Positions 1,961-54,880 of a stretch of DNA of 64,000 nucleotides are shown here, piece by piece. The stretch spans positions 30,010-94,009 of IMG/VR virus record IMGVR_UViG_3300025858_000016; one strand, written 5' to 3'. Position 1 is the stretch's first letter; every line of letters starts with the position of its first letter. The position numbers and the translations under genes were made by a program. The notes beneath the pieces are model-generated. The model had not been told where the DNA came from and ran no database searches. It saw only the letters and a program-made list of their open reading frames with translations. Source of the DNA: a virus. Taxonomy: Duplodnaviria > Caudoviricetes.

Positions 1961-3625
1961 ATGCAACAGACACCTAATTTCAATAGTAAACAGATAATTT
2001 CTAAAGAAGAATTAAGACTTTGGGATGAATCTTTGAGAGAGTTAGTTGGTAATGTATTACGATATAATCGTAATTCAGATTTAGTGGGAGGGTCTTTAGA
2101 TGCTTATGATACTAATACAAGTTCATTAATAAATGATTTTTTTAAAGTATCATTAGGATCTGTTCAAGTTGAGGGTTATAATACATTAAAGGTTGGAGTT
2201 GGACGTGGTGTTCTGTGTGTTGAAAATACAACAACAAAGAAAGTATCAGGGTTGGAGTATTATAATAACTCTCTTTCTAAGCAATTAGTGACATTGTTAA
2301 AATGGGAAGAGACTGATAATATCACAGTTGATGGTATAGAAACTTATGGTAGTGGAGATGAAGTTTATATGGGTCTCTCCCCTATTTGGGATCCATTAGA
2401 GGTTGGGTTGTGTAATATTTCTTCTTCTAACCAGGTTACTATAACTGGGGGAGATTTTACGAAATTAAGAGGACAATCTCTGAAGAATCCTACTAAAATA
2501 CGATTTTATACAGAACTTGGTGCAGCAGCTGTTAATAGTGAGACATATGAAGTAATATCAATTATAGATGATAATAATATTATTATTTCAGGTATAGTAA
2601 GTAATGAAACTAATGTAAAAATGTTGATTGTTGGGTCTTATGATTTAGATATTCAAGGCAGTTTGACAAATAAATTTTCATATGTTACTGCTAATGGGAA
2701 ATTAACGTTTACGGAGACAGCATCAGATATAACAGGGGCAGGTGGTTTTATTATTTGTAAATTAGTGTTTGGTTCAGGTGGGGCATTTACTGTAGTGGAT
2801 CTGAGAGGCGATTATTTGTTCAATTTTGCTTATTCACCTGATATAGTATATAAGAGTTTAGTTCAGACAATTACAGGTAAAAAGACTTTTTCAACAGCTG
2901 TGCCCTCGTTTGCTTCATTTTTAGAATATTATTTAGATTCTATATCAGCTGTTACTCCTATTACATTAACGAATGGGAATAATACTAGTAGTCTAGTTAT
3001 TCCTGATAGGAATGGATCATTGTTTTATATAACTGCTACTGGTGGATATGAATTAGTTAGTATTACTTGTACTAAATCAGTATTACCAGGGACTTCTTTG
3101 TTTTTAAAATTAGATGATAGTAGTGTCGATTTAACAATTGGAGTAAAAGTAAATTCTGATCCAGCTGTAGCTTGGTCTATAAAGACTAATGATTATGCTC
3201 TTAATTATGTAGTAGGGCCAAGAGTTGTGATAAAGAGTGGTAGTATTATACATTTAGTTTTAGATAAAGATAATGTTTGGAATTTAGTAAATATCAATTC
3301 AAGTTGGGTAGATTCTCCTTGGGTTCAAGTTGATAAGATGTATGATACTAATTCTGCTCTTATAAGTACTGCTACTAATAAGGTGTATTATAAATATGAT
3401 GTAAATAAATTAGTAATTAATATAGAACGCATTGCAATATCTGTAGCGGTACCTATTACTTTTGTAGTGCCATTTACATTTTCTCATAAAGTGGTAGATT
3501 TTCTACAATCTTATGATAGTATAGAGATGACTGGTAAGGTTACTATAGATATTAATGGGTTAGTAACGATTATGACCACAACTGGCATTGGGAATTGTTA
3601 TAAAACAGTAATTATATACTTCTAA
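1961..3625 (+). CDS. putative tail/baseplate or fibre-base protein
   Basis: 554 aa, T/S/G/V-rich; fibre-like QTITGKKTFS motif. Confidence 0.45.
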   Translation: MQQTPNFNSKQIISKEELRLWDESLRELVGNVLRYNRNSDLVGGSLDAYDTNTSSLINDFFKVSLGSVQVEGYNTLKVGVGRGVLCVENTTTKKVSGLEYYNNSLSKQLVTLLKWEETDNITVDGIETYGSGDEVYMGLSPIWDPLEVGLCNISSSNQVTITGGDFTKLRGQSLKNPTKIRFYTELGAAAVNSETYEVISIIDDNNIIISGIVSNETNVKMLIVGSYDLDIQGSLTNKFSYVTANGKLTFTETASDITGAGGFIICKLVFGSGGAFTVVDLRGDYLFNFAYSPDIVYKSLVQTITGKKTFSTAVPSFASFLEYYLDSISAVTPITLTNGNNTSSLVIPDRNGSLFYITATGGYELVSITCTKSVLPGTSLFLKLDDSSVDLTIGVKVNSDPAVAWSIKTNDYALNYVVGPRVVIKSGSIIHLVLDKDNVWNLVNINSSWVDSPWVQVDKMYDTNSALISTATNKVYYKYDVNKLVINIERIAISVAVPITFVVPFTFSHKVVDFLQSYDSIEMTGKVTIDINGLVTIMTTTGIGNCYKTVIIYF

Positions 3626-3628
3626 GAA

Positions 3629-4192
3629 ATGAAATTATACTATACTGTAGCATCAGCTCAGAATGATGTCCAATTTAAACCTGAACTAAGTTTAGGTGGA
3701 TATAAATCTGCTAATTTAGTTGAGAGTAATAGATTTGAAAATTTGTTTAGTGACATATCAATGTATACTGTTAAGAATAACAACAGTAATAAATATATTG
3801 GTCTAATTTTAGTTAATGAAGATTCTGTAGCACATTCAGATGTATATTTTTGGTTTAAATATCCAAGTTCTTGTTCTTCTAAATTTAGGGTAGCTATTGT
3901 CGATTTAGCTACTGATACAGACGGTATAGAATTTATGGAACATATTAGTAGTAATGAGAGTAAACCATTGTATGCAACATTTTATGAAGCTGATGGAGAA
4001 GATAATAAAATTAGTATAGGCAGTATAGCTTCAGGTGGTATGCTTGGTATTTGGTTTGAAAGAGAATTAAATTTAGATGCTATTAAGTTAGAACAAAATT
4101 CTATATATCAACAAGACTCTAGTGATCCATATCATTATAATGAGGTGGAACTTTCTAAAGAGGATATTATTGATATTAATTTTCAGTGGTAA
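3629..4192 (+). CDS. putative virion structural protein
   Basis: 187 aa, coupled to the upstream gene; SLGGYKS motif. Confidence 0.4.
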   Translation: MKLYYTVASAQNDVQFKPELSLGGYKSANLVESNRFENLFSDISMYTVKNNNSNKYIGLILVNEDSVAHSDVYFWFKYPSSCSSKFRVAIVDLATDTDGIEFMEHISSNESKPLYATFYEADGEDNKISIGSIASGGMLGIWFERELNLDAIKLEQNSIYQQDSSDPYHYNEVELSKEDIIDINFQW

Positions 4193-4269
4193 AAATATTT
4201 TTGGTTTTTTAAAGTTTATATTGATAAATTATATAATTTTATAAATTAAAATATAAAATTTATATTTAA

Positions 4270-4761
4270 ATGATAGATTTGGTTAAAGATATATTTAATA
4301 AAGTATACATGCAGATATATGGTTTTGAATATCATTTTAAGAATGATAAAGTTGAGAAATTAATAAAAGATTTTATAGATAAGATTAATATTAATGTTGG
4401 AGAACAGTGGTTGTTAGATTTTATTATTTTTCAGTTTTCATATTATGATGGTATGAAAACACGATTCGATAGGGTTTATTTGAATTGGATTTTTGGTGAT
4501 AAGGCAATTGAGAGATGGGAGAATAGGACAGAACAACAAGTTTATTTTGCTAATGAATTTAGAAGAAAATTAGGTATTAATAGAGAATTTGATAAATTAA
4601 ATATAAAAGAACATAATGAGAGAGAGAAATTAAGATTTACTGATATAAATGATAGATTATTATATTGTGATGAATTAAGTTTATTTAGCGATAGTTCTGA
4701 TATTTGTAAATGTTGTATTAATTACCAAATTTGTTATAATCATGTCAGACGGTTGTGTTAA
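4270..4761 (+). CDS. hypothetical protein with C-terminal Cys cluster
   Basis: ORF track; follows an AT-rich promoter-like gap. Confidence 0.6.
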   Translation: MIDLVKDIFNKVYMQIYGFEYHFKNDKVEKLIKDFIDKININVGEQWLLDFIIFQFSYYDGMKTRFDRVYLNWIFGDKAIERWENRTEQQVYFANEFRRKLGINREFDKLNIKEHNEREKLRFTDINDRLLYCDELSLFSDSSDICKCCINYQICYNHVRRLC

Positions 4762-40702: not shown

Positions 40703-41036
40703 ATATTATATAATTAATCAAAGAGAGAACGTTGTAGACATTTCTAATGATGAGGTGTTTAAAGAATATTTGATATCTAAAGAAGATATTGTTGAACATT
40801 TGAGAGCACAGTTGATTTTTATGAAGGAACATAAAGATTATAGAATAAAACCAATTTTGATAGGTGTTACTACTGAGAAGTTTACTGAACTGGTAAGTCA
40901 TTTAAGTAGTAAGTATAAAGGATTTTTGTATAGTTATTTCGTTAATAGAAATCAGATACCTATATTACTTCAACCAAAAGGTGGTGTAATGATAGTTATA
41001 TTGGATTCTGAAAAAATGGCTAAAAACAATGACTAA
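40695..41036 (+). CDS. hypothetical protein
   Basis: Probable ATG at 40695, overlapping the groEL end. Confidence 0.55.
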   Translation: MNKYYIINQRENVVDISNDEVFKEYLISKEDIVEHLRAQLIFMKEHKDYRIKPILIGVTTEKFTELVSHLSSKYKGFLYSYFVNRNQIPILLQPKGGVMIVILDSEKMAKNND

Positions 41037-44000
41037 AGAAGAAATATTTTCATCAGTATGTGAATATTTTAATGGCGATGAACTAGCTGCTAATGTGTGG
41101 ATAGATAAATATGCATTGAAAGATAAAAATGGTGATATAAAAGAGAAGACACCTGAAGATATGCATAGAAGATTAGCTAAGGAGTTTTCTAGAATAGAGT
41201 CTAACTATCCAAATCCCATTTCTGAAAAGAAGATATTTGAATTGTTTGATAGATTTAGATATATAGTTCCACAGGGATCACCTATGTTTGGGATCGGGAA
41301 TGAATTTTCAATAACTTCTCTTTCCAATTGTTTTGTTATAGATTCTGCTATAGATTCTTATGGTGGTATAATGCGTACAGATGAAGAACAAATACAGTTA
41401 ATGAAACGAAGAGGTGGAGTTGGTCATGATTTATCTAATCTAAGACCGGCTGGGGCTTTAGCTAATAATGCTGCTTTAAATGATATGGCAGGATCAGTGT
41501 TGTATGCTCAGAGATTTTCTAATTCCACTAAAGAAGTAAGACAAGGTGATCGTAGAGGGGCATTGATGTTATCTATTTCTATTAAACATCCCGATGCTGA
41601 AAGATTTATAGATTCAAAATTAGAAAGTGGTAAGATAACAGATGCTAATATATCTGTTCGTATAACAGATGAGTTTATGGGAAGAGTAGTATGTGATGGT
41701 GATTTTTATCAAACTTTTCCTATTGATTTAGAGATACCATATTGTAGTAAAGATTATGATTTAATTAATAAATTAGAGTATAACAAACTACTAAAGGTTG
41801 ATGGTGGGTATATAAAGAAAGTAAAAGCAAGATATCTCTGGGATAAGATAATTAAGAATGCATGGAAATCAGCTGAACCGGGTATCCTCTTTTGGGATAC
41901 TATTATAAGAGAATCACCTGCAGATTGTTATGGAGAAGAGTGGAAGACTAAGTCAACTAATCCATGTTTAACTGGAGATACAATTATTGCTGTTGCTGAT
42001 GGAAGAAATGGTGTTACTATTAAAGAATTAGCTGATAAGGGAAGTAAATTTTTAGTATATTGTGCTGATAAGAATGCTTCTAACGGTAATAGAGGTGGAG
42101 GATGGAAAGTTAATATTAAAGAAGGTATTGCATTTAAAACTGGTATAAGAAAAGTTTTAGAAGTAATTCTTTCTGATGGCTCTTCTTTTAGATGTACTCC
42201 AGATCATTTATTAGCTACTTTTGATGGTAATTATGTTGAAGCAAAAGATTCTTTAGGAGTTAAGTTAGGTAAATTTTATTCTTTTTCTAATAAAAATAAT
42301 GGATCATCATATAGACATATTAATAGTAGATATAATGGGTATTCTAAACAATATAGAATGATTTATGAATATTTTTATGGTTCTTATGATGGTAAATTAT
42401 ATAATATTGATCATATTGATCGTGATTCTACAAATGATTCATTAAATAATTTAAGGTTATTAGATATAAATGAGCATGTTAAAATTACAGATAGAATTGG
42501 AGAATCTAATCCTATTCATAAGATAGTTGGTACAGAACGTTTAAGATTAATGAATAAACGTAAAAATATTTATGCAAATGCTAAAAAATATAATTGGGAT
42601 AATGATAGATTAGAAAATTCTTTAATGTTATTTGATAAGGAATTTGGTAATCTATTAAAAGAATTAGAACCTGAAGATATTAATGTTAATTTAGATGAAT
42701 CTATATATGTAGATAATATTATAGAACTTGCTAAAGAAGAAGTATATGATATTTATGTTGAAGATTATCATAATTTTTATATTATAACTAAAACAGATGA
42801 TGATAAATTCTTAAACAGTTCAGGTTTGTTAGTTCATAATTGTGGAGAGATTCCACTTTGTCCTCAAGACAGTTGTCGATTGATGTCTATTAATCTTTAT
42901 TCATATGTTGTTAATCCATTTGAGAAAGATGCATATTTTAATTTTGATTTATTCAAAGAACATGTAATTATTGCTCAAAGATTAATGGACGATTTAGTAG
43001 ATTTAGAACTTGAGAAGATAAACAGGATACTTGAAAAAATAGAAAATGATCCTGAATCAGATAGTATTAAGAGTGTTGAAAAAGAACTTTGGGAGAATAT
43101 ATTTTATAAAACTCAAGCAGGTCGTAGAACAGGATTAGGAACAACAGGAGAAGGTGATATGTTGGCTGCATTAGGGTTTACATATGGTTCTGGATTAGCT
43201 ATTGATATGAGTGAGAGAGTTCATGAACAATTAGCTATTTCAAGTTATGTATCATCTATTATAATGGCTAAGGAGAGAGAGTCATTTCTTAAGTGGGATT
43301 TTGAATTAGAAAAAAATAATCCATTTGTTAGTAGAGTTATTAATTGGATATCAGATTTTAATTATAGTGATTCTGAATTGGGGAGATTTGATTTAGTTTA
43401 TAAACAATATGGTCGTAGAAATATTTCTAACTTAACTATAGCCCCTACTGGGACTACTAGTATAATGACACAAACTACTTCTGGTATAGAGCCTTGTTTT
43501 GCTGTATTTTATAAACGTAGAAGAAGGACTATAGATAAGAGTAAAGCTACTTTTATTGATGAACATGGTGAGATGTTTGAAGAATATAATGTATTTCATC
43601 ATAAGTTTAAAGACTGGTATGATAAAAATTGGTATAAAACAGATATTAAATTGTTTGATATTGATTATAAAAAACCACTGGAAGATTATACTGATGAAGA
43701 ATTAAATATATTAGTTAGTAAGTCTCCTTATCATAATTCAACTTCATCAGATGTTAATTGGGTTGATAAAGTTAAATTGCAAGGTAGGGTACAAAAGTGG
43801 GTTGATCATTCAATATCTGCAACAACTAATATTCCAGAAAACACTCCTATTAGTGTTGTTGATGATATTTATATGACAGCTTATAAAAGTGGTTGTAAGG
43901 GAATGACAATATATAGAGAAGGATCAAGATCTGGTATATTAGTTAATGATAAGAAAAATAATTTTGAGTATGTTGACGCTGTTAAACGGCCAAAAGAGTT

Positions 44001-44481
44001 GGAGTGTGATATTTATCATAAAGTGGCATTGAAAATAAATTGGATGATTTTGGTAGGTAAATATGAAGGGAAACCATATGAAATATTTGCATTTCCAGAG
44101 TTACCTAATCATATTTTCCCTTATAAGATACAGAAGGGTACTATTAGAAAACTAAAGAGTAGAGTATATAAGTTAGTAGGTGTTGATAAGGAATTTGATA
44201 AATCTTATGAAATTCCTAATATAATTGATCTTATAGAGAATGAAGATCAAGTGGGTACACGTAAGTATTCCATGATGCTTAGACATAAGATAGATCCTAA
44301 GTTTATCGTTTCAGAAATAGAACAATATGCATTGGTTACTAGTTTTGATAAGGTTGTTCAAAGGGTTTTACGTAATTATATAGATAGTGAGTTTATAGAG
44401 TGTCCTGAATGTGGTAGTAAACTACAACCATCAGATGGATGTTGGAAGTGTTTGAATTGTGGGTATTCAAAATGTGGTTAA
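41029..44481 (+). CDS. nrdJ: class II (B12-dependent) ribonucleotide reductase with intein
   Basis: SNCFV, RRGALM, EPG, NP[intein]CGE, RRTGLG, APTGTTS, SGIEP, GCKGMTIYR, C-terminal Zn ribbon. Confidence 0.92.
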   Translation: MTKEEIFSSVCEYFNGDELAANVWIDKYALKDKNGDIKEKTPEDMHRRLAKEFSRIESNYPNPISEKKIFELFDRFRYIVPQGSPMFGIGNEFSITSLSNCFVIDSAIDSYGGIMRTDEEQIQLMKRRGGVGHDLSNLRPAGALANNAALNDMAGSVLYAQRFSNSTKEVRQGDRRGALMLSISIKHPDAERFIDSKLESGKITDANISVRITDEFMGRVVCDGDFYQTFPIDLEIPYCSKDYDLINKLEYNKLLKVDGGYIKKVKARYLWDKIIKNAWKSAEPGILFWDTIIRESPADCYGEEWKTKSTNPCLTGDTIIAVADGRNGVTIKELADKGSKFLVYCADKNASNGNRGGGWKVNIKEGIAFKTGIRKVLEVILSDGSSFRCTPDHLLATFDGNYVEAKDSLGVKLGKFYSFSNKNNGSSYRHINSRYNGYSKQYRMIYEYFYGSYDGKLYNIDHIDRDSTNDSLNNLRLLDINEHVKITDRIGESNPIHKIVGTERLRLMNKRKNIYANAKKYNWDNDRLENSLMLFDKEFGNLLKELEPEDINVNLDESIYVDNIIELAKEEVYDIYVEDYHNFYIITKTDDDKFLNSSGLLVHNCGEIPLCPQDSCRLMSINLYSYVVNPFEKDAYFNFDLFKEHVIIAQRLMDDLVDLELEKINRILEKIENDPESDSIKSVEKELWENIFYKTQAGRRTGLGTTGEGDMLAALGFTYGSGLAIDMSERVHEQLAISSYVSSIIMAKERESFLKWDFELEKNNPFVSRVINWISDFNYSDSELGRFDLVYKQYGRRNISNLTIAPTGTTSIMTQTTSGIEPCFAVFYKRRRRTIDKSKATFIDEHGEMFEEYNVFHHKFKDWYDKNWYKTDIKLFDIDYKKPLEDYTDEELNILVSKSPYHNSTSSDVNWVDKVKLQGRVQKWVDHSISATTNIPENTPISVVDDIYMTAYKSGCKGMTIYREGSRSGILVNDKKNNFEYVDAVKRPKELECDIYHKVALKINWMILVGKYEGKPYEIFAFPELPNHIFPYKIQKGTIRKLKSRVYKLVGVDKEFDKSYEIPNIIDLIENEDQVGTRKYSMMLRHKIDPKFIVSEIEQYALVTSFDKVVQRVLRNYIDSEFIECPECGSKLQPSDGCWKCLNCGYSKCG
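41965..42840 (+). mobile_element. intein (292 aa) with HNH endonuclease in the RNR active site
   Basis: Begins CLTGDT, block B CTPDH, block F VYDIYVEDYHNF, ends LVHN before CGE; internal DHIDRDSTNDSLNNL...EH. Confidence 0.92.
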
Positions 44482-48332: not shown

Positions 48333-49597
48333 AATGTAGCGGATTTACAAAAAAGTATTATCTTTGCATAAATAAAACTATTTAATAGTATAATGAAGAC
48401 AATTTTTCGGACATATCAATTTGAATTGCAGCCAACACAAGAGCAAAAAGTGTTGTTGGATAAGCATTTTGGTTGTGTTCGGTTTGTGTTCAATCACTTT
48501 TTAAATGAAAGAAAAGAGCAATATCAAGCAGATAAAAAGTCTGATAGTTACTATAAACAGGCTGCTACATTAACCGAACTAAAAAAGAAAGAAGAAACTG
48601 CTTGGCTCAAAGAAGTGAATAGCCAATCATTACAATTTGCTTTAAGATGTTTGGATACTGCTTACGTAAACTTCTTTAGAGGTAACGCTAAGTTTCCACA
48701 ATTTAAGTCAAGGAAAAAGAAAAACTCATTCACAGTTCCACAGTTCGCAAAACTTGAAGTTGGTAGATTTTTTGCACCAAAATTCAAAGAAGGTATTAAA
48801 GTAAATGTTCACCGTGAAGTTAAAGGGGAAATTGGTAAATGCACTTTGAGCAAAACACCAACAGGAAAATATTTCGTATCAATACTATCAGAAGAACAAT
48901 ATCAACCAAAAGAAAAGACTGGTGCTGTTTGTGGAATAGATTTAGGTTTAAAAGACTTTGCTATTACTTCTGATGGTGTCAAATTCAAGAACAACAAATA
49001 CACAAAACAATATGAAAAAGAGTTAGCGAAAGCACAAAAACATCTTTCTCGTAAAGTAAAGGGTAGTAATTCGTTTGAAAAACAAAGACGAAAAACAGCC
49101 TTAATTTACGAGAAGATAACCAACTCACGAATGGATAACTTACACAAGGTATCTCACAAATTGGTAACTGATTATGATATAATCGCATTAGAAGATTTGA
49201 ATGTGAAAGGTATGGTCAAAAACCATAAACTTGCAAAACATATATCAGATGCCAGTTGGGGAACTTTTGTAAGATTACTTGAATACAAAGCAAATTGGAA
49301 TGACAAACAAATTGTTAAAATCAATCGCTGGTATCCAAGTTCAAAAACCTGTTGTGAGTGCGGTTGGATAAATCAAGACTTAAATCTTTCAATAAGAGAA
49401 TGGACTTGCAAAAATGGACACGTATTAGACCGTGACCTTAATGCAGCAAAGAACATTTTTAAAGAAGGATTAAAAATATTAAACTCGGCAGGAACTGTCG
49501 AAAACACGGATGGAGATGGTGTAAGAAGTAGTAATACTCAACTATCTACGAAGTCCGAAGCCCAACCCATCAGCTTTGCTGTGGGTGGGTAGTTCAC
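48325..49597 (+). mobile_element. IS200/IS605-family non-autonomous element (tnpB only); left end approximate
   Basis: tnpB ORF; right-end hairpin GCCCAACCCA...TGGGTGGGT and terminal TTCAC at 49593-49597; own TATCTTTG promoter box. Confidence 0.8.
48393..49592 (+). CDS. tnpB: RNA-guided endonuclease TnpB
   Basis: FGCVRFVFN, GIDLGLK, IALEDLNVKGM, SSKTCCECG, DRDLNAAKNI. Confidence 0.95.
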   Translation: MKTIFRTYQFELQPTQEQKVLLDKHFGCVRFVFNHFLNERKEQYQADKKSDSYYKQAATLTELKKKEETAWLKEVNSQSLQFALRCLDTAYVNFFRGNAKFPQFKSRKKKNSFTVPQFAKLEVGRFFAPKFKEGIKVNVHREVKGEIGKCTLSKTPTGKYFVSILSEEQYQPKEKTGAVCGIDLGLKDFAITSDGVKFKNNKYTKQYEKELAKAQKHLSRKVKGSNSFEKQRRKTALIYEKITNSRMDNLHKVSHKLVTDYDIIALEDLNVKGMVKNHKLAKHISDASWGTFVRLLEYKANWNDKQIVKINRWYPSSKTCCECGWINQDLNLSIREWTCKNGHVLDRDLNAAKNIFKEGLKILNSAGTVENTDGDGVRSSNTQLSTKSEAQPISFAVGG

Positions 49598-52432: not shown

Positions 52433-52517
52433 AATCTGTGTTTTCTGAAAAGTTTTGCAGCGTAGGTGATAACTATAAAACATCATTTATTCAAACAATA
52501 ATTAAAAAGTTAAGATC

Positions 52518-52757
52518 ATGTTACTAAGTGATGAATTACTGAAAATTGGACAGTTTGCCAACCCAAAGAACAATCTGTCAATGTATCAACAAGAATCGGT
52601 GATGATAACCAGAGTCAGAGAGGCTCATAAGAAAGGAAGTTCTATTAAGCAACTGTATAATATTGTAAACATGGTTTGCAATCAGTTGAACAAACAGGGT
52701 TACAACTACTTTAATGTCGATCATTTCTTTGTTAAAAATCAGGAAGGAGTAATGTAA
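52518..52757 (+). CDS. hypothetical protein
   Basis: ORF with the repeated leader. Confidence 0.55.
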   Translation: MLLSDELLKIGQFANPKNNLSMYQQESVMITRVREAHKKGSSIKQLYNIVNMVCNQLNKQGYNYFNVDHFFVKNQEGVM

Positions 52758-52849
52758 TGGAAGCAATGTTGACAATAGTTGTATTCGTTGCACTGGTAAT
52801 TGGTGCATTTTCAAGTGTCGATCCTATTGAAGTAGATGACGAGTTATGA
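52757..52849 (+). CDS. 30-aa membrane peptide (not in the track)
   Basis: MEAMLTIVVFVALVIGAFSSVDPIEVDDEL; start and stop overlap both neighbours. Confidence 0.5.
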   Translation: MEAMLTIVVFVALVIGAFSSVDPIEVDDEL

Positions 52850-53031
52850 AAATTAATAAAGAAGAATTAGACAAATTGAGTATGGCAGATTTTATAAAGA
52901 GGAAAAAGGAGATTGAAGCACATAATGCAAAGTTATCTGGTCTGATGGTGAAATTGGTAGACACGATAGACTTAAAATCTATTACTCATAGCGAGTGTGC
53001 CAGTTCGACTCTGGCTCAGACTACAAAATAA
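52846..53031 (+). CDS. hypothetical protein reading through tRNA-Leu
   Basis: ATGA-coupled start; 3' half overlaps the tRNA. Confidence 0.4.
   Translation: MKINKEELDKLSMADFIKRKKEIEAHNAKLSGLMVKLVDTIDLKSITHSECASSTLAQTTK
52939..53023 (+). tRNA. tRNA-Leu(TAA)
   Basis: GGTCTGA/TCAGACT acceptor, TGGTGAAATTGGTAGACAC, ATAGA-CTTAAAA-TCTAT, long variable arm, GCCAGTTCGACTCTGGC. Confidence 0.93.
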
Positions 53032-53290
53032 GTTCTTTGAAATTCCTGATTGAAGCAAACAAATTATAGAGCCTGCTTGGTACGACATATAGTCAAAAGT
53101 TATAATTAGACCTCTTGCAAAGGTCGTTGTTTGTGGATAGATAAAAGTTGACAAAGTGTTACATATTCAGTTGTCCAGATGCTCGGCGCAACCGACGGTG
53201 GGTAGCAGACTGTAGATTAGACTCAGATATGTATCACAGAGGTTAATGTATTATTCCGTAGGCATAACGGTCAGGAATTTTTAAAGGACT
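53030..53290 (+). ncRNA. unassigned ~260-nt multibranch structured RNA (RNA-1)
   Basis: Closing stem AATTCCTGA/TCAGGAATT, many internal helices, no ORF, higher GC than the genome. Confidence 0.7.
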
Positions 53291-53291
53291 A

Positions 53292-53680
53292 AAGTTCTTT
53301 GAATAATTGAAAATCTTTGGCTAAACATTGATCCTTTGTGAATAAAACTATCTCACAATAGTAATTATCTGTGTCATGCGCATGTCGCTTGTAAGTAAGC
53401 TAAAACTGGCAGATAGATTCACATAAAGATGATAATCCTGAATTGACAGGATGTTGAATATGCAACATACGATGGCAGAAATGCTGATAGGAGTTGTAGG
53501 CGTAAAAACATCAATGGAGTAATCCTATACGTGTTGTTCCCTTGAGAAAGGATACCATGATTCAATTCTTGATATGTAAAAATGGCATATCCAACACGAA
53601 TGAGTTCTCAGCATGACCCTACTACTCTCGTAAGAGATACGTGGAATAAATTTCAGTGAGTCTGAAGATAGAGGGTGCTA
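53292..53680 (+). ncRNA. unassigned ~370-390-nt ornate RNA with two predicted pseudoknots (RNA-2)
   Basis: About 10 helices, GNRA tetraloops, TGAGAA/TTCTCA loop pairing; no ORF. Confidence 0.72.
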
Positions 53681-53703
53681 AAACAATTTATAAAACAAAT
53701 ATT

Positions 53704-54021
53704 ATGACAACAGATAAATTAGAAAAAGCTAATGAATTAAAGAAGACTATTGATGACTATAAGAATAGAATTCGAGCATCAGTTTCTTTCAGGGATGAGA
53801 CATGTTCTTTAGTTAAGGACTGTTCTTTAAGTATTCAGACAGTTGTTGTGACTAAAGAAGGTGGGAAAGAATATACATCTGATAATTTTGGGACTGCTAA
53901 TGGTATATCTGAAGAATTAAAAAAGAAAGTAGTTGAAGAGATTCAAGAATGTGCTATTCGTATTGCAAGGATTTTTGAGAGAGAGATTAAGCATTTGGAA
54001 GAAGAATTCGAATCACTTTAG
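53704..54021 (+). CDS. hypothetical protein
   Basis: ATG at 53704 (the track's GTG start lies within RNA-2). Confidence 0.6.
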   Translation: MTTDKLEKANELKKTIDDYKNRIRASVSFRDETCSLVKDCSLSIQTVVVTKEGGKEYTSDNFGTANGISEELKKKVVEEIQECAIRIARIFEREIKHLEEEFESL

Positions 54022-54059
54022 GATTTTTAAATAAAGTGATTAGTAAAGTTCTTTGAAGA

Positions 54060-54125
54060 TATTGTTATATTGTTGACGTTATTTGTAACTATGTTTGGAC
54101 CGGGGTTCGATTCCCCGCAGCTCCA
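54060..54125 (+). ncRNA. ssrA: tmRNA acceptor piece (permuted gene)
   Basis: GGAC-CGGGG-TTCGATT-CCCCG-CAGCTCC-A; upstream part is complementary to the coding piece. Confidence 0.9.
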
Positions 54126-54155
54126 CATAATTCGCCTAATGCGTAATCGGTGAAC

Positions 54156-54289
54156 AGATAATAAACGATGTTGTTCTCGAGAAGAACTGAGGAAAGTTTG
54201 ATCCAAGAAGTAACCCATAATCCAGGGAGAGGTGGTTTTTTATATTTTTTTATACCCACCAGATGATGCCAGGTGATCGTTTATTATCT
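54156..54289 (+). ncRNA. structured RNA nested in the tmRNA intervening segment (RNA-3)
   Basis: Perfect 14-bp closing stem, three internal hairpins, GAGGAAAGT motif. Confidence 0.6.
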
Positions 54290-54297
54290 TCTTATTA

Positions 54298-54454
54298 GGG
54301 GCTGACTGGTTTAGACAGCATAAGTTGTGGATAAAAGAGATATAACAGTGCAAAATAGATGGCAACATCTTTACACAAAAACAGGAAATGAGATTAGCTG
54401 CATAAGCTGAATTTTATTTCTGATTAGGGTGGCCTGTCTAAGATAGACCACCCT
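54298..54454 (+). ncRNA. ssrA: tmRNA coding piece; tag (A)GNIFTQKQEMRLAA at 54361-54405
   Basis: 5' GGGGCTG pairs with CAGCTCC including G3-U70; tag frame ends LAA-TAA inside a hairpin. Confidence 0.9.
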
Positions 54455-54463
54455 TCTTATTTA
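54426..54463 (+). terminator. terminator hairpin ending the RNA island
   Basis: AGGGTGG.CTGTC-TAA-GATAG.CCACCCT then TCTTATTT. Confidence 0.7.
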
Positions 54464-54520
54464 TAATGAATAAAAATTAATGATAAATATAAAAGTTATA
54501 TTTATTTTTATTAATTTTAT
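54459..54520 (+). promoter_or_regulatory. degenerate promoter module
   Basis: ATTTATAATGAATAAAAAT-TAATGATA ... TATTAATTTTA. Confidence 0.5.
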
Positions 54521-54536
54521 GGCGTTAAAATAGAAT

Positions 54537-54674
54537 ATGAAAAAATATCATAAAATGAAGAAATATTGGGAAGCCATTTTAATGGTAAATTTGAATAAAT
54601 TGTTTAATGCTCCTAATTATTATTATACTTGGTGGCAAGTCAGATTAGATATGATTAAGAAAGGGTTGATATGA
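54537..54674 (+). CDS. small hypothetical protein (45 aa, not in the track)
   Basis: MKKYHKMKKYWEAILMV...; stop overlaps the next ATG. Confidence 0.45.
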   Translation: MKKYHKMKKYWEAILMVNLNKLFNAPNYYYTWWQVRLDMIKKGLI

Positions 54675-54880
54675 AAAGAATTTCAAAAGAAAAGAAATTG
54701 GCAGCTAAGAATAAACTGTTGAAGATAGTTAACAGTTGTACATCTCTAATCCATTTAGATATGGTATGTGTTATGATGGATAGATTTTGTGAATTATTTG
54801 TTGATGATGAAGAAGATTTTGGTTGGTATATGGAGATTGATAATGCTTATTCAGAAAAATTAAACTCCCTATTGATATGA
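54671..54880 (+). CDS. hypothetical protein
   Basis: ORF track. Confidence 0.55.
   Translation: MKRISKEKKLAAKNKLLKIVNSCTSLIHLDMVCVMMDRFCELFVDDEEDFGWYMEIDNAYSEKLNSLLI

What the first reader, a model, noticed from the sequence alone, without database searches (positions are those of the whole stretch)
53292..53680. RNA-2: ornate RNA with two predicted pseudoknots
CATTGAT (53326)/ATCAATG (53510) encloses CTTTGTGAAT/ATTCACATAAAG, TATCTGT/GCAGATA, TCCTG/CAGGA, TGTTG/CAACA and GGCA-GAAA-TGCT. ATAGGA (53487)/TCCTAT (53523) crosses that stem. CGTGTTG/CAACACG encloses a hairpin whose TGAGAA loop (53543) complements TTCTCA (53605) outside it. A final domain AGCA..CCCT/AGGGTGCT contains TCTC-GTAA-GAGA and TTCAG/CTGAA. 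Size and tRNA-adjacent phage context recall GOLLD/ROOL-type RNAs, but I cannot assign it.
Basis: partly seen in the sequence, partly recalled or inferred. Interest (0 to 1): 0.8.

Follow-up and report, generated by a model that had tools for sequence, protein, structure and literature searches.

The report
Uncatalogued, abundant folded phage RNA gene
Bases 53319-53681 encode one copy of a widespread, highly expressed, intricately folded phage RNA that sits among tRNA and tmRNA genes, is missing from the RNA family catalogue (Rfam), and has no known job.

Summary
The stretch is a real non-coding RNA gene, on the + strand at 53319-53681 (363 nt). It matches no Rfam family even at E<=10, and its single-sequence folding energy is no better than shuffles (z -0.03). 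The evidence is comparative.

A scan of 185,579 prokaryote genomes gave only 4 MAG contigs.
- 97 copies are long RNAs like this one. 114 are the core alone, placed directly in front of tRNA-shaped genes.
- On 51 long members the family fold pairs 93% of cells, with 24 pairs changed on both sides against 10 in shuffles (0/500).
The ATAGGA/TCCTAT pseudoknot is not: TCC belongs to a covarying GUAA hairpin.
- Two sludge metatranscriptomes hold perfect-match contigs at depth 217-552, against 0-4 on the flanks.
- A cultured member lies in Cellulophaga phage phi14:2, inside the 'g004-g005 junction' that was published as an abundant, persistent long non-coding RNA of unknown function.

The function remains unknown. 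My best guess is a stable, trans-acting scaffold, decoy or self-assembling RNA released from a tRNA/tmRNA transcript.

This scan had already met the family on other DNA (e1-5890671, e1-5938843, e1-5618128).

The parts
53290..53303 (+). 14-mer TAAAGTTCTTTGAA, 15 nt upstream of the RNA. Further copies lie at 53028-53041 (one mismatch) and 54044-54057. It may be a promoter, a processing signal or a cassette junction.
   Evidence: Three exact copies of its 12-nt core (AAGTTCTTTGAA) lie in the window. Allowing one mismatch there are 8 matches against 1.45 expected, and 0 of 100 shuffles reach 8. The same motif stands before the tmRNA of relative L009. Relatives' contigs join at these points (joints 53042>53319 and 53672>54046).
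53319..53681 (+). The whole RNA gene (363 nt), a 'long-form' member of the family's long architecture.
   Evidence: The ends are set by the family alignment: 5' GGYTAAAC and 3' GGGTGCTAA. RNA-run contigs are confined to about 53326-53668.
53334..53428 (+). Helix Pa (53334-36 with 53426-28; 53337-43 with 53417-23), enclosing the variable insert V1 (53344-53416).
   Evidence: 94.8% of cells pair and 4 of 7 pairs change on both sides. Relatives replace 53340-53416.
53432..53528 (+). Helix Pb. Outer part: AUA 53432-34 with UAU 53526-28. Inner part: GGA 53516-18 with UCC 53523-25, closed by a GUAA loop. It encloses the long-form insert 53435-53515, which carries the conserved hairpin 53435-40/53447-52.
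   Evidence: All 6 pairs change on both sides, for example GC 23 / UG 12 / AU 6 / UA 5. The insert hairpin is conserved in 17 long-form members.
53530..53598 (+). Core three-way junction. S1 is 53530-36 with 53592-98. H1 is 53538-40 with 53550-52 and has a 9-nt loop at 53541-49. H2 is a variable hairpin at 53554-91.
   Evidence: The outer S1 pair covaries. The H1 stem covaries across scans, for example TCAC/GTGG in phi14:2 and also TTTC/GAAA and GAGC/GCTT. H2 is replaced in relatives.
53543..53610 (+). Pseudoknot PK2: loop UGAGAA (53543-48) pairs with UUCUCA (53605-10).
   Evidence: There are compensatory pairs in L248 (UGAUAA/UUAUCA), L275 (UUGGAA/UUCCAA) and L331 (UGAGCA/UGCUCA).
53611..53678 (+). 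3' domain. The closing helix is 53611-13 with 53676-78. Helix Pe is CCCU 53617-20 with AGGG 53672-75. Two window-specific hairpins lie at 53623-39 and 53652-66. The hairpin Pd found in most relatives is absent here.
   Evidence: About 97-100% of cells pair, with single double changes. MAFFT misplaces the window's 3' domain, so the counts come from anchored extraction.
52939..53024 (+). tRNA-Leu(UAA), the upstream neighbour on the same strand.
   Evidence: ARAGORN and Rfam, 56.6 bits.
54035..54496 (+). Circularly permuted (two-piece) tmRNA gene, the downstream neighbour. The Rfam core is 54066-54405.
   Evidence: Rfam tmRNA_permuted 62.3 bits; ARAGORN gives a tag peptide.

Best explanation
Bases 53319-53681 are a gene for a stable, highly expressed, structured non-coding RNA. 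It belongs to a large phage-specific family that is not in Rfam.

SHOWN:
- The family has a conserved ~90-nt core. The core is a three-way junction (S1, H1, H2) in which the 9-nt loop of H1 pairs with a downstream UUCUCA.
- The core occurs in two architectures. One is a 220-575-nt RNA with extra 5' and 3' domains, as here. The other is the bare core plus a hairpin, placed 4-8 nt before a tRNA-shaped gene.
- The helices are maintained by compensatory changes.
- This very locus is strongly over-represented in metatranscriptomes.
- The member in the cultured phage phi14:2 lies inside a published intergenic region that is transcribed from the earliest time sampled and does not decline.

INFERRED (biogenesis): the RNA is made as part of an untranslated tRNA / RNA / tmRNA transcript. 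It is cut free by the enzymes that trim the neighbouring tRNA-like ends (RNase P, RNase Z).

INFERRED (function, about 35% of my belief): the freed RNA acts in trans, without a phage-encoded protein partner. It would work as a scaffold or decoy for a host factor of translation or RNA processing, or as a self-assembling RNA whose UGAGAA/UUCUCA contact forms between molecules, as in GOLLD, ROOL or phi29 pRNA.
For: - That is 267 distinct cores in 252 loci, 97 long and 114 short.
- Only 4 MAG contigs matched in 185,579 genomes.
- No Rfam match on the window copy or on 52 family loci, apart from tRNA and tmRNA.
- Covariation: 93.2% paired against 87.7% shuffled; 24 pairs with double changes against 10.1; score 0.159 against 0.066; 0/500 shuffles; slid controls 0.024-0.046.
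- PK2 and the H1 stem have compensatory variants.
- Expression: perfect-match contigs in RNA runs X4 and X5 at depth 217-552 over 53326-53668. ORF105, the 105-codon ORF at 53704-54021, reads 0-2.4 and the tmRNA 4.3. DNA run X2 is flat at about 14-20.
- phi14:2: the member lies at about 2913-3360, in the g004-g005 junction. The paper calls that junction an abundant early and persistent long non-coding RNA of unknown function.
- Context: a tRNA or tmRNA lies within about 800 nt of 68 of 149 cores. A tmRNA lies downstream on the same strand as the long form in the window, phi14:2, L205, L220 and L114 (within about 0.7 kb), and 3.8 kb away in L146. Some copies start 2-10 nt after a tRNA-like 3' end.
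- No conserved neighbouring protein: the best cluster is present in 28 of 289 loci.
Against: - Nothing tested here bears on function. The scaffold, decoy or self-assembly idea rests on analogy.
- Logan contigs cannot show RNA ends, strand or true abundance, and the two RNA runs may come from one campaign.
- Several conserved blocks were fixed by my own search patterns, so their invariance is partly circular.
- Co-transcription with the tRNA and tmRNA is not shown. The repeated 14-mer could instead be a separate promoter for each RNA.
- The family-constrained fold of this copy (-57.8 kcal/mol without PK2) is much weaker than the unconstrained MFE (-81.4).
- The window copy is atypical in its 3' domain: it has no Pd hairpin and two private hairpins.
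Confidence: 0.85

Rival explanations
1. A cis-acting leader element. The folded core would serve the neighbouring stable-RNA genes. It could guide or time RNase P/E processing, shield the transcript's 5' end, or make RNA polymerase resistant to Rho termination across an untranslated operon, as HK022 put RNA or rRNA boxA do. Its abundance would then be only the persistence of a stable by-product.
For: The short architecture lies 4-8 nt upstream of tRNA-shaped genes in 114 copies. Long forms abut the tmRNA in L205 and L220. No protein partner is conserved.
Against: In one set of 20 long-form loci scanned at Rfam's gathering threshold, no tmRNA was found and only 3 loci had a tRNA within about 150 nt of the RNA. 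In the window and in phi14:2 an ORF separates the RNA from the tmRNA. Conservation of about 200 nt beyond the core, and persistence to late infection, are more than a leader needs.
Confidence: 0.2
2. A new self-cleaving or otherwise catalytic RNA that punctuates phage tRNA-array transcripts.
For: The junctions and loops have near-invariant nucleotides. The core is pseudoknotted. The element sits exactly between tRNA genes, 3-4 nt after a tRNA or tmRNA 3' end in 8 copies.
Against: There is no match to any ribozyme model. RNA-run contigs overlap across the whole RNA with no consistent break other than at variant branch points. No conserved candidate cleavage site was identified.
Confidence: 0.07
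3. A highly diverged member of a described family (GOLLD, ROOL, raiA, RNase P RNA, a group I intron or phi29-type pRNA).
For: It shares its size range, phage origin and tRNA neighbourhood with GOLLD and ROOL. It shares a three-way junction plus complementary loops with pRNA.
Against: No Rfam hit at E<=10 on 421 nt or on 2.2 kb, and none at the gathering threshold on 52 other family loci. The RNA does not interrupt a gene, so it is not an intron. I saw none of the RNase P P4 consensus sequences that I recall, by eye only.
Confidence: 0.03
4. Not a functional RNA: a decayed spacer, chance stems, or a missed protein-coding gene.
For: The MFE z-score is about 0. GenBank once annotated three small reverse-strand ORFs over the phi14:2 copy.
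Against: Hundreds of homologues have covarying helices and inserts whose lengths vary freely. No ORF of 40 aa or more lies on the + strand inside the RNA. RefSeq removed the phi14:2 ORFs. Expression is strong.
Confidence: 0.01

Closest known systems
The abundant 'long non-coding RNA' of the g004-g005 junction of Cellulophaga phage phi14:2 (Drobysheva et al., bioRxiv 10.1101/2020.03.07.982082)
   Same: It holds a true homologue. A family member lies at NC_021806 about 2913-3360, with the same block order, the same core, the same 3' end and the long-form insert. The layout is also the same: RNA, then a small ORF, then a tmRNA.
   Different: The paper reports only a transcript from an intergenic region. 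It gives no structure, family or function. The H1 stem differs by two compensatory pairs. The two small ORFs are unrelated. The phi14:2 tmRNA is one-piece, whereas the window's is permuted. phi14:2 is crAss-like, whereas this phage's portal is closest to Chryseobacterium and Bacteroides phages.
GOLLD and ROOL RNAs (large ornate phage/prophage RNAs; Nature 2025, PMC12286853)
   Same: They are large, intricately folded and of unknown function. They are encoded by phages or prophages, often beside tRNA genes. Kissing-loop contacts are central to their architecture.
   Different: There is no detectable sequence or structure match. This RNA is smaller, 220-575 nt against roughly 600-800 nt for ROOL and GOLLD as I recall. 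Self-assembly is not shown for it.
phi29 prohead RNA (pRNA)
   Same: It is a phage-encoded RNA built on a three-way junction, with two complementary loop sequences that covary.
   Different: There is no Rfam match. The pRNA loops pair between molecules to build a ring on the portal. Here the pairing could be in cis or in trans, and there is no link to packaging genes.
Phage T4 stable RNAs C and D (species 1 and 2) in the tRNA gene cluster
   Same: From my own knowledge, they are stable non-tRNA RNAs of unknown function, encoded within and processed from a phage tRNA transcription unit.
   Different: They are much smaller (about 120-140 nt). No homology was tested or is expected.

Membership tests
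Uncatalogued phage RNA family (the phi14:2 g004-g005 junction type) | Ordered conserved blocks: the 5' GGYTAAACATTGA block, ACATAAAGAT, the S1-H1 core with a CTTGAGAAA loop, CAACAC followed by TTCTCAGC, GACCCTA, and the 3' GGGTGCTAA. | tested here: met
   All blocks are present in order in the window copy and in 51-73 full-length members.
Uncatalogued phage RNA family (the phi14:2 g004-g005 junction type) | Helices Pa, Pb, S1, H1 and PK2 and the 3' closing helices are kept by compensatory change. | tested here: met
   The window copy forms all of them except Pd, which it lacks.
Uncatalogued phage RNA family (the phi14:2 g004-g005 junction type) | Phage-borne, on the same strand as nearby tRNA or tmRNA genes, and strongly transcribed. 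| tested here: met
GOLLD / ROOL / raiA / OLE | A match to the family covariance model. | tested here: not met
   cmscan against 4227 Rfam families gave no hit at E<=10 on 53285-53705 or on 52500-54700.
Group I or group II intron | A model match, and insertion inside a host gene with restorable exons. | tested here: not met
   No model hit. The element lies between an intact tRNA-Leu and an ORF.
RNase P RNA | A model match and the conserved P4 pseudoknot sequences. | tested here: not met
   No hit to any Rfam model at E<=10. I saw no P4 consensus by eye, from memory of that consensus.
phi29-type pRNA | A model match, and intermolecular loop-loop pairing that forms a ring on the portal. | tested here: not met
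   No hit to any Rfam model at E<=10. Whether the loop pairing is intermolecular cannot be tested with these tools.
Self-cleaving ribozymes (hammerhead, twister, pistol, hatchet, HDV-like) | A model match, or demonstrated site-specific cleavage. | tested here: not met
   No model hit.

The most novel reading that the evidence does not exclude
The conserved three-way-junction and kissing core is the functional unit of a new class of phage RNA. It would act as an RNA-only machine, either a homo-oligomeric assembly held by intermolecular UGAGAA/UUCUCA contacts or a ribozyme. It would work with the tRNA-shaped RNAs and tmRNAs it always accompanies, to reprogram or protect translation from the first minutes of infection. 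This would hold across crAss-like and unrelated Bacteroidota-type phages of sea, lake and sludge.
Probability: 0.2. Interest if true: 0.9.

Novelty: categorically new. Interest (0 to 1): 0.78.

Why it matters
This is one of the commonest unexplained RNA genes in uncultured phages. Capped scans returned hundreds of copies, from marine, freshwater and wastewater samples. In the one cultured carrier that has been examined, a crAss-like phage, it lies in an intergenic region transcribed above most protein-coding genes.

Its constant company of tRNA-shaped RNAs and tmRNAs points to an unknown layer of phage control over translation or RNA processing. phi14:2 and Cellulophaga baltica can be grown, and RNA-seq data exist (GSE133609). 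A well-defined fold with a proven pseudoknot therefore makes the question directly testable, by deletion, pull-down, probing and cryo-EM. Large natural RNAs of this kind have recently turned out to form unexpected RNA-only assemblies.

Tried and rejected
- Single-sequence thermodynamics gave no signal on either strand.
- blastn of 53025-53704 against 50,697 phage records found nothing at E<=1e-5. The phi14:2 homologue appeared only when a more typical family member was used as the query.
- Neighbouring proteins did not lead to homologues of the RNA. ORF105 has one 36%-identical relative, in a locus without the RNA. The 388-aa protein gave no pattern hit.
- 80 portal-related loci hold no RNA-2 by blastn or nhmmer, and the region between the conserved genes is hypervariable.
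- RNAalifold on the raw, gappy MAFFT alignment recovered only S1 and the inner part of Pb. It also proposed a long-range pairing that competes with the covarying Pb, which I discarded.
- MAFFT misaligned the window's 3' domain, so one helix (Pe) was mis-registered. I used the anchored counts instead.
- The sigma-70 promoter and terminator scan was at shuffle level.
- Clustering of neighbouring ORFs found no common partner. The clusters were homing-endonuclease-like, HTH, RNase H-like, SPFH and AAA_33 proteins, each in 28 or fewer of 289 loci.
- Literature searches by motif string returned only unrelated primers.
- The supplement of the 10,006-candidate viral RNA list (PMC10690425) is not held, so I could not check whether an unnamed entry there corresponds to this family.
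- Rejected: a link to the TnpB/IS605 gene at 48393-49592. It lies 3.7 kb away with genes in between.
- Rejected: homology between ORF105 and phi14:2 g005.

Full report
**Setting**

The window is the last 64 kb of a 94-kb IMG/VR virus record. CheckV estimates it 86% complete. GC is about 30% and nearly all genes are on the + strand.

The gene order around the finding is:
- a small ORF (52518-52757)
- tRNA-Leu(UAA) (52939-53024)
- about 680 nt without any ORF
- a 105-codon ORF (53704-54021), called ORF105 in this report
- a circularly permuted tmRNA (ARAGORN 54035-54496; Rfam 54066-54405, 62 bits)

The portal protein is closest to those of Chryseobacterium and Bacteroides phages, at 34-36% identity. 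A Bacteroidota host is therefore likely but not shown. DNA runs that hold the stretch come from activated sludge, biofilm and bioreactor samples.

**The observation**

They are not more than chance when judged on one sequence. The minimum free energy equals that of dinucleotide shuffles on both strands (z -0.03 and -0.28). No Rfam family matches, either at curated thresholds or at E<=10 on a 421-nt or a 2.2-kb slice.

**Finding relatives**

Gene-neighbour routes failed. The segment between two conserved genes is hypervariable in 80 portal-related phages, and none of them carries the RNA.

The break came from laying public runs on the locus. Two activated-sludge metatranscriptomes contain contigs identical to the window:
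- 53326-53453 at depth 322
- 53426-53545 at depths 370 and 552
- 53523-53668 at depth 218

By comparison, ORF105 reads 0-2.4, the tmRNA 4.3, and the upstream genes 0-2.7. A DNA run is flat at about 14-20 across the whole stretch.

Many other contigs, in both RNA and DNA runs, keep 53326-39, 53417-55, 53513-52 and 53592-613. They replace the segments in between. That pattern is the signature of a family with a fixed core and variable stems.

Contigs cannot give RNA ends, strand or true level, and the two RNA runs may belong to one campaign. The hundred-fold contrast with silent flanks in the same runs still argues for RNA rather than contaminating DNA.

**The family**

- An 18-mer from the most conserved block found 15 IMG/VR loci.
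They include Tara (ocean-survey) scaffolds, ENA marine assemblies and many JGI contigs. The same pattern found only 4 MAG contigs among 185,579 prokaryote species.

In what was fetched there are 267 distinct cores in 252 loci. The shared core is:
- stem S1
- a 4-bp stem H1 with a 9-nt loop
- a variable hairpin H2
- the return strand of S1
- seven or so bases
- UUCUCA

The core occurs in two architectures. In 97 copies it is embedded in a 220-575-nt RNA with a conserved 5' domain and a conserved 3' domain ending in GGGUGCUAA. The window copy is one of these, at 53319-53681. In 114 copies the UUCUCA is the loop of a 5-bp hairpin, and a tRNA-shaped gene starts 4-8 nt later. That gene often has the acceptor stem GUCAGG and a long insert. 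Some long RNAs start 2-10 nt after such a tRNA-shaped gene, and two loci (L148, L158) show more than one long copy.

**Structure**

I tested a family structure of 53 pairs on a 51-sequence alignment of full-length long members.

| measure | observed | shuffles |
|---|---|---|
| cells paired | 93.2% | 87.7% |
| pairs changed on both sides | 24 | 10.1 |
| covariation score | 0.159 | 0.066 |

No shuffle out of 500 reached the observed values. When the 3' partners were slid by 1-3 columns, the covariation score fell to 0.024-0.046.

The best-supported helices are:
- Pb, a hairpin closed by a GUAA tetraloop, where all six pairs covary
- Pa, with one pair at AU 27 / GC 20
- Pd
- the base of the 3' hairpin

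My patterns had fixed the core sequences, so I ran two scans that left either the H1 loop or the H1 stem free. The loop-free scan gave three independent double changes that keep the loop-to-downstream pairing:
- UGAUAA/UUAUCA in L248
- UUGGAA/UUCCAA in L275
- UGAGCA/UGCUCA in L331

The stem-free scan and phi14:2 gave compensatory H1 stems: TCAC/GTGG, TTTC/GAAA, GAGC/GCTT, TTGC/GCAA and TTAC/GTAA. These fix H1 as a 4-bp stem with a 9-nt loop, rather than the GNRA-type hairpin RNAfold prefers. That leaves UGAGAA free for the pseudoknot.

The first (ATAGGA/TCCTAT) fails. TCC is the 3' strand of the covarying Pb hairpin, TAT closes the outer part of Pb, and ATAGGA lies in a segment that relatives replace.

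The enclosing helix CATTGAT/ATCAATG is compatible in 13 of 20 members that carry the same 'long-form' insert. It cannot be proven, because its 5' strand never varies, and short-form members lack the partner.

The window copy lacks Pd and has two private hairpins in its 3' domain.

**A cultured member and published expression**

A typical family member used as a query matches Cellulophaga phage phi14:2 over 85% of its length (E 3e-21). phi14:2 is a crAss-like phage of the Steigviridae. Phages phi4:1 and phi17:2 match the 3' hairpin only.

In phi14:2 the RNA lies at about 2913-3360, between g004 and the former g005. Three small reverse-strand ORFs were once annotated there, and RefSeq removed them in 2020.

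[quoted passage not shown] The second junction holds an unannotated one-piece tmRNA at 4031-4502. ARAGORN finds it, and Rfam scores it 46 bits (E 1e-16), one bit under the cut-off. phi14:2 and the window therefore share the order RNA, small ORF, tmRNA, although the two ORFs are unrelated.

A tmRNA also follows the long RNA in these loci:
- L205, by 6 nt
- L220, by 15 nt
- L114, by about 145 nt
- L146, by 3.8 kb

One relative seen only as contigs joins the RNA's 3' end directly to the 14-mer before the tmRNA. The link is recurrent but not universal: 20 further long-form loci had no tmRNA at the gathering threshold.

**How it probably works**

Shown: it is a real, strongly expressed, structured RNA with a pseudoknotted three-way-junction core. 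It is confined to phages. It sits among genes for tRNAs, tRNA-shaped RNAs and tmRNAs on the same strand, and it has no conserved protein gene beside it.

Inferred: it is transcribed with its neighbours and released by the tRNA-end processing enzymes. Its ends abut tRNA-like ends in many loci.

Function is open. I give:
- about 35% to a trans-acting scaffold, decoy or self-assembling RNA
- about 20% to a cis-acting leader (processing, protection or antitermination)
- about 7% to catalysis
- very little to membership of a described family or to non-function
- the remainder, about a third, to roles I have not framed

Covariation cannot tell whether the UGAGAA/UUCUCA contact forms within one molecule or between molecules.

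**Novelty**

The family is absent from Rfam 15. I found no paper that describes it as a family or gives a structure. The only trace in print is the unexplained phi14:2 transcript. A 2023 list of 10,006 candidate viral RNAs could contain it unnamed, but I could not check its supplement.

Earlier agents of this scan met the same family on other genomes (e1-5890671, e1-5938843, e1-5618128). The first of those notes gave me the phi14:2 lead, which I verified independently.

New here:
- the two architectures that share one core
- compensatory proof of the pseudoknot and of the H1 stem
- metatranscriptome evidence for this locus
- identification of phi14:2's second 'lncRNA' as a tmRNA
- the cassette-like junctions marked by the repeated 14-mer

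Noticed in passing
window 53028-53041, 53290-53303, 54044-54057; L009 1074-1085: The 14-mer TAAAGTTCTTTGAA heads RNA-1, RNA-2 and the tmRNA. A near copy precedes the tmRNA of a related phage. One relative's contigs lack RNA-1 (joint 53042>53319) and ORF105 (joint 53672>54046), with the breaks at or beside these repeats. The RNAs therefore behave like cassettes. Whether the motif is a promoter, a processing site or a recombination site is open.
   Followed up: partly
window 53108-53289 (RNA-1): The neighbouring ORF-free RNA-1 is also covered in the RNA runs, at depth 35-84. It occurs with one mismatch inside otherwise different contigs of 3580 and 626 nt. It may therefore be a second conserved, mobile RNA element. 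No relative was found by blastn among the loci held.
   Followed up: partly
L246 (NC_021806) 4031-4502: Cellulophaga phage phi14:2 carries an unannotated one-piece tmRNA (tag GSSVQKLAMVA; Rfam 46 bits against a cut-off of 47). It lies in the published 'g005-g006 junction' long non-coding RNA region.
   Followed up: yes
L161 3631-4007 and many other loci: The short form of the core sits directly upstream of tRNA-shaped genes. These share the acceptor stem GUCAGG/CCUGAC and often carry a ~60-nt insert where the anticodon arm should be. ARAGORN usually does not call them.
   Followed up: partly
L415 (phi4:1) 1510-1592; also phi17:2: Only the 3' hairpin of the long RNA (GACCCUAC ... AGAGGGCGCUAA) occurs alone, about 10 nt upstream of a gene start. 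This part may be a separable module.
   Followed up: no
L158 and L148: In L158 two long-form copies lie in tandem: the 3' end of one is followed 5 nt later by the 5' end of the next. L148 also shows two 5'-end motifs of the long form.
   Followed up: no
window 48393-49592: A TnpB/IS605 OrfB-type gene (OrfB_IS605, Cas12f-like TNB and HTH domains) lies 3.7 kb upstream. Its guide (omega) RNA, if any, was not looked for.
   Followed up: no
window 41029-44481: The ribonucleotide reductase large subunit is interrupted by an intein with an HNH endonuclease domain.
   Followed up: no
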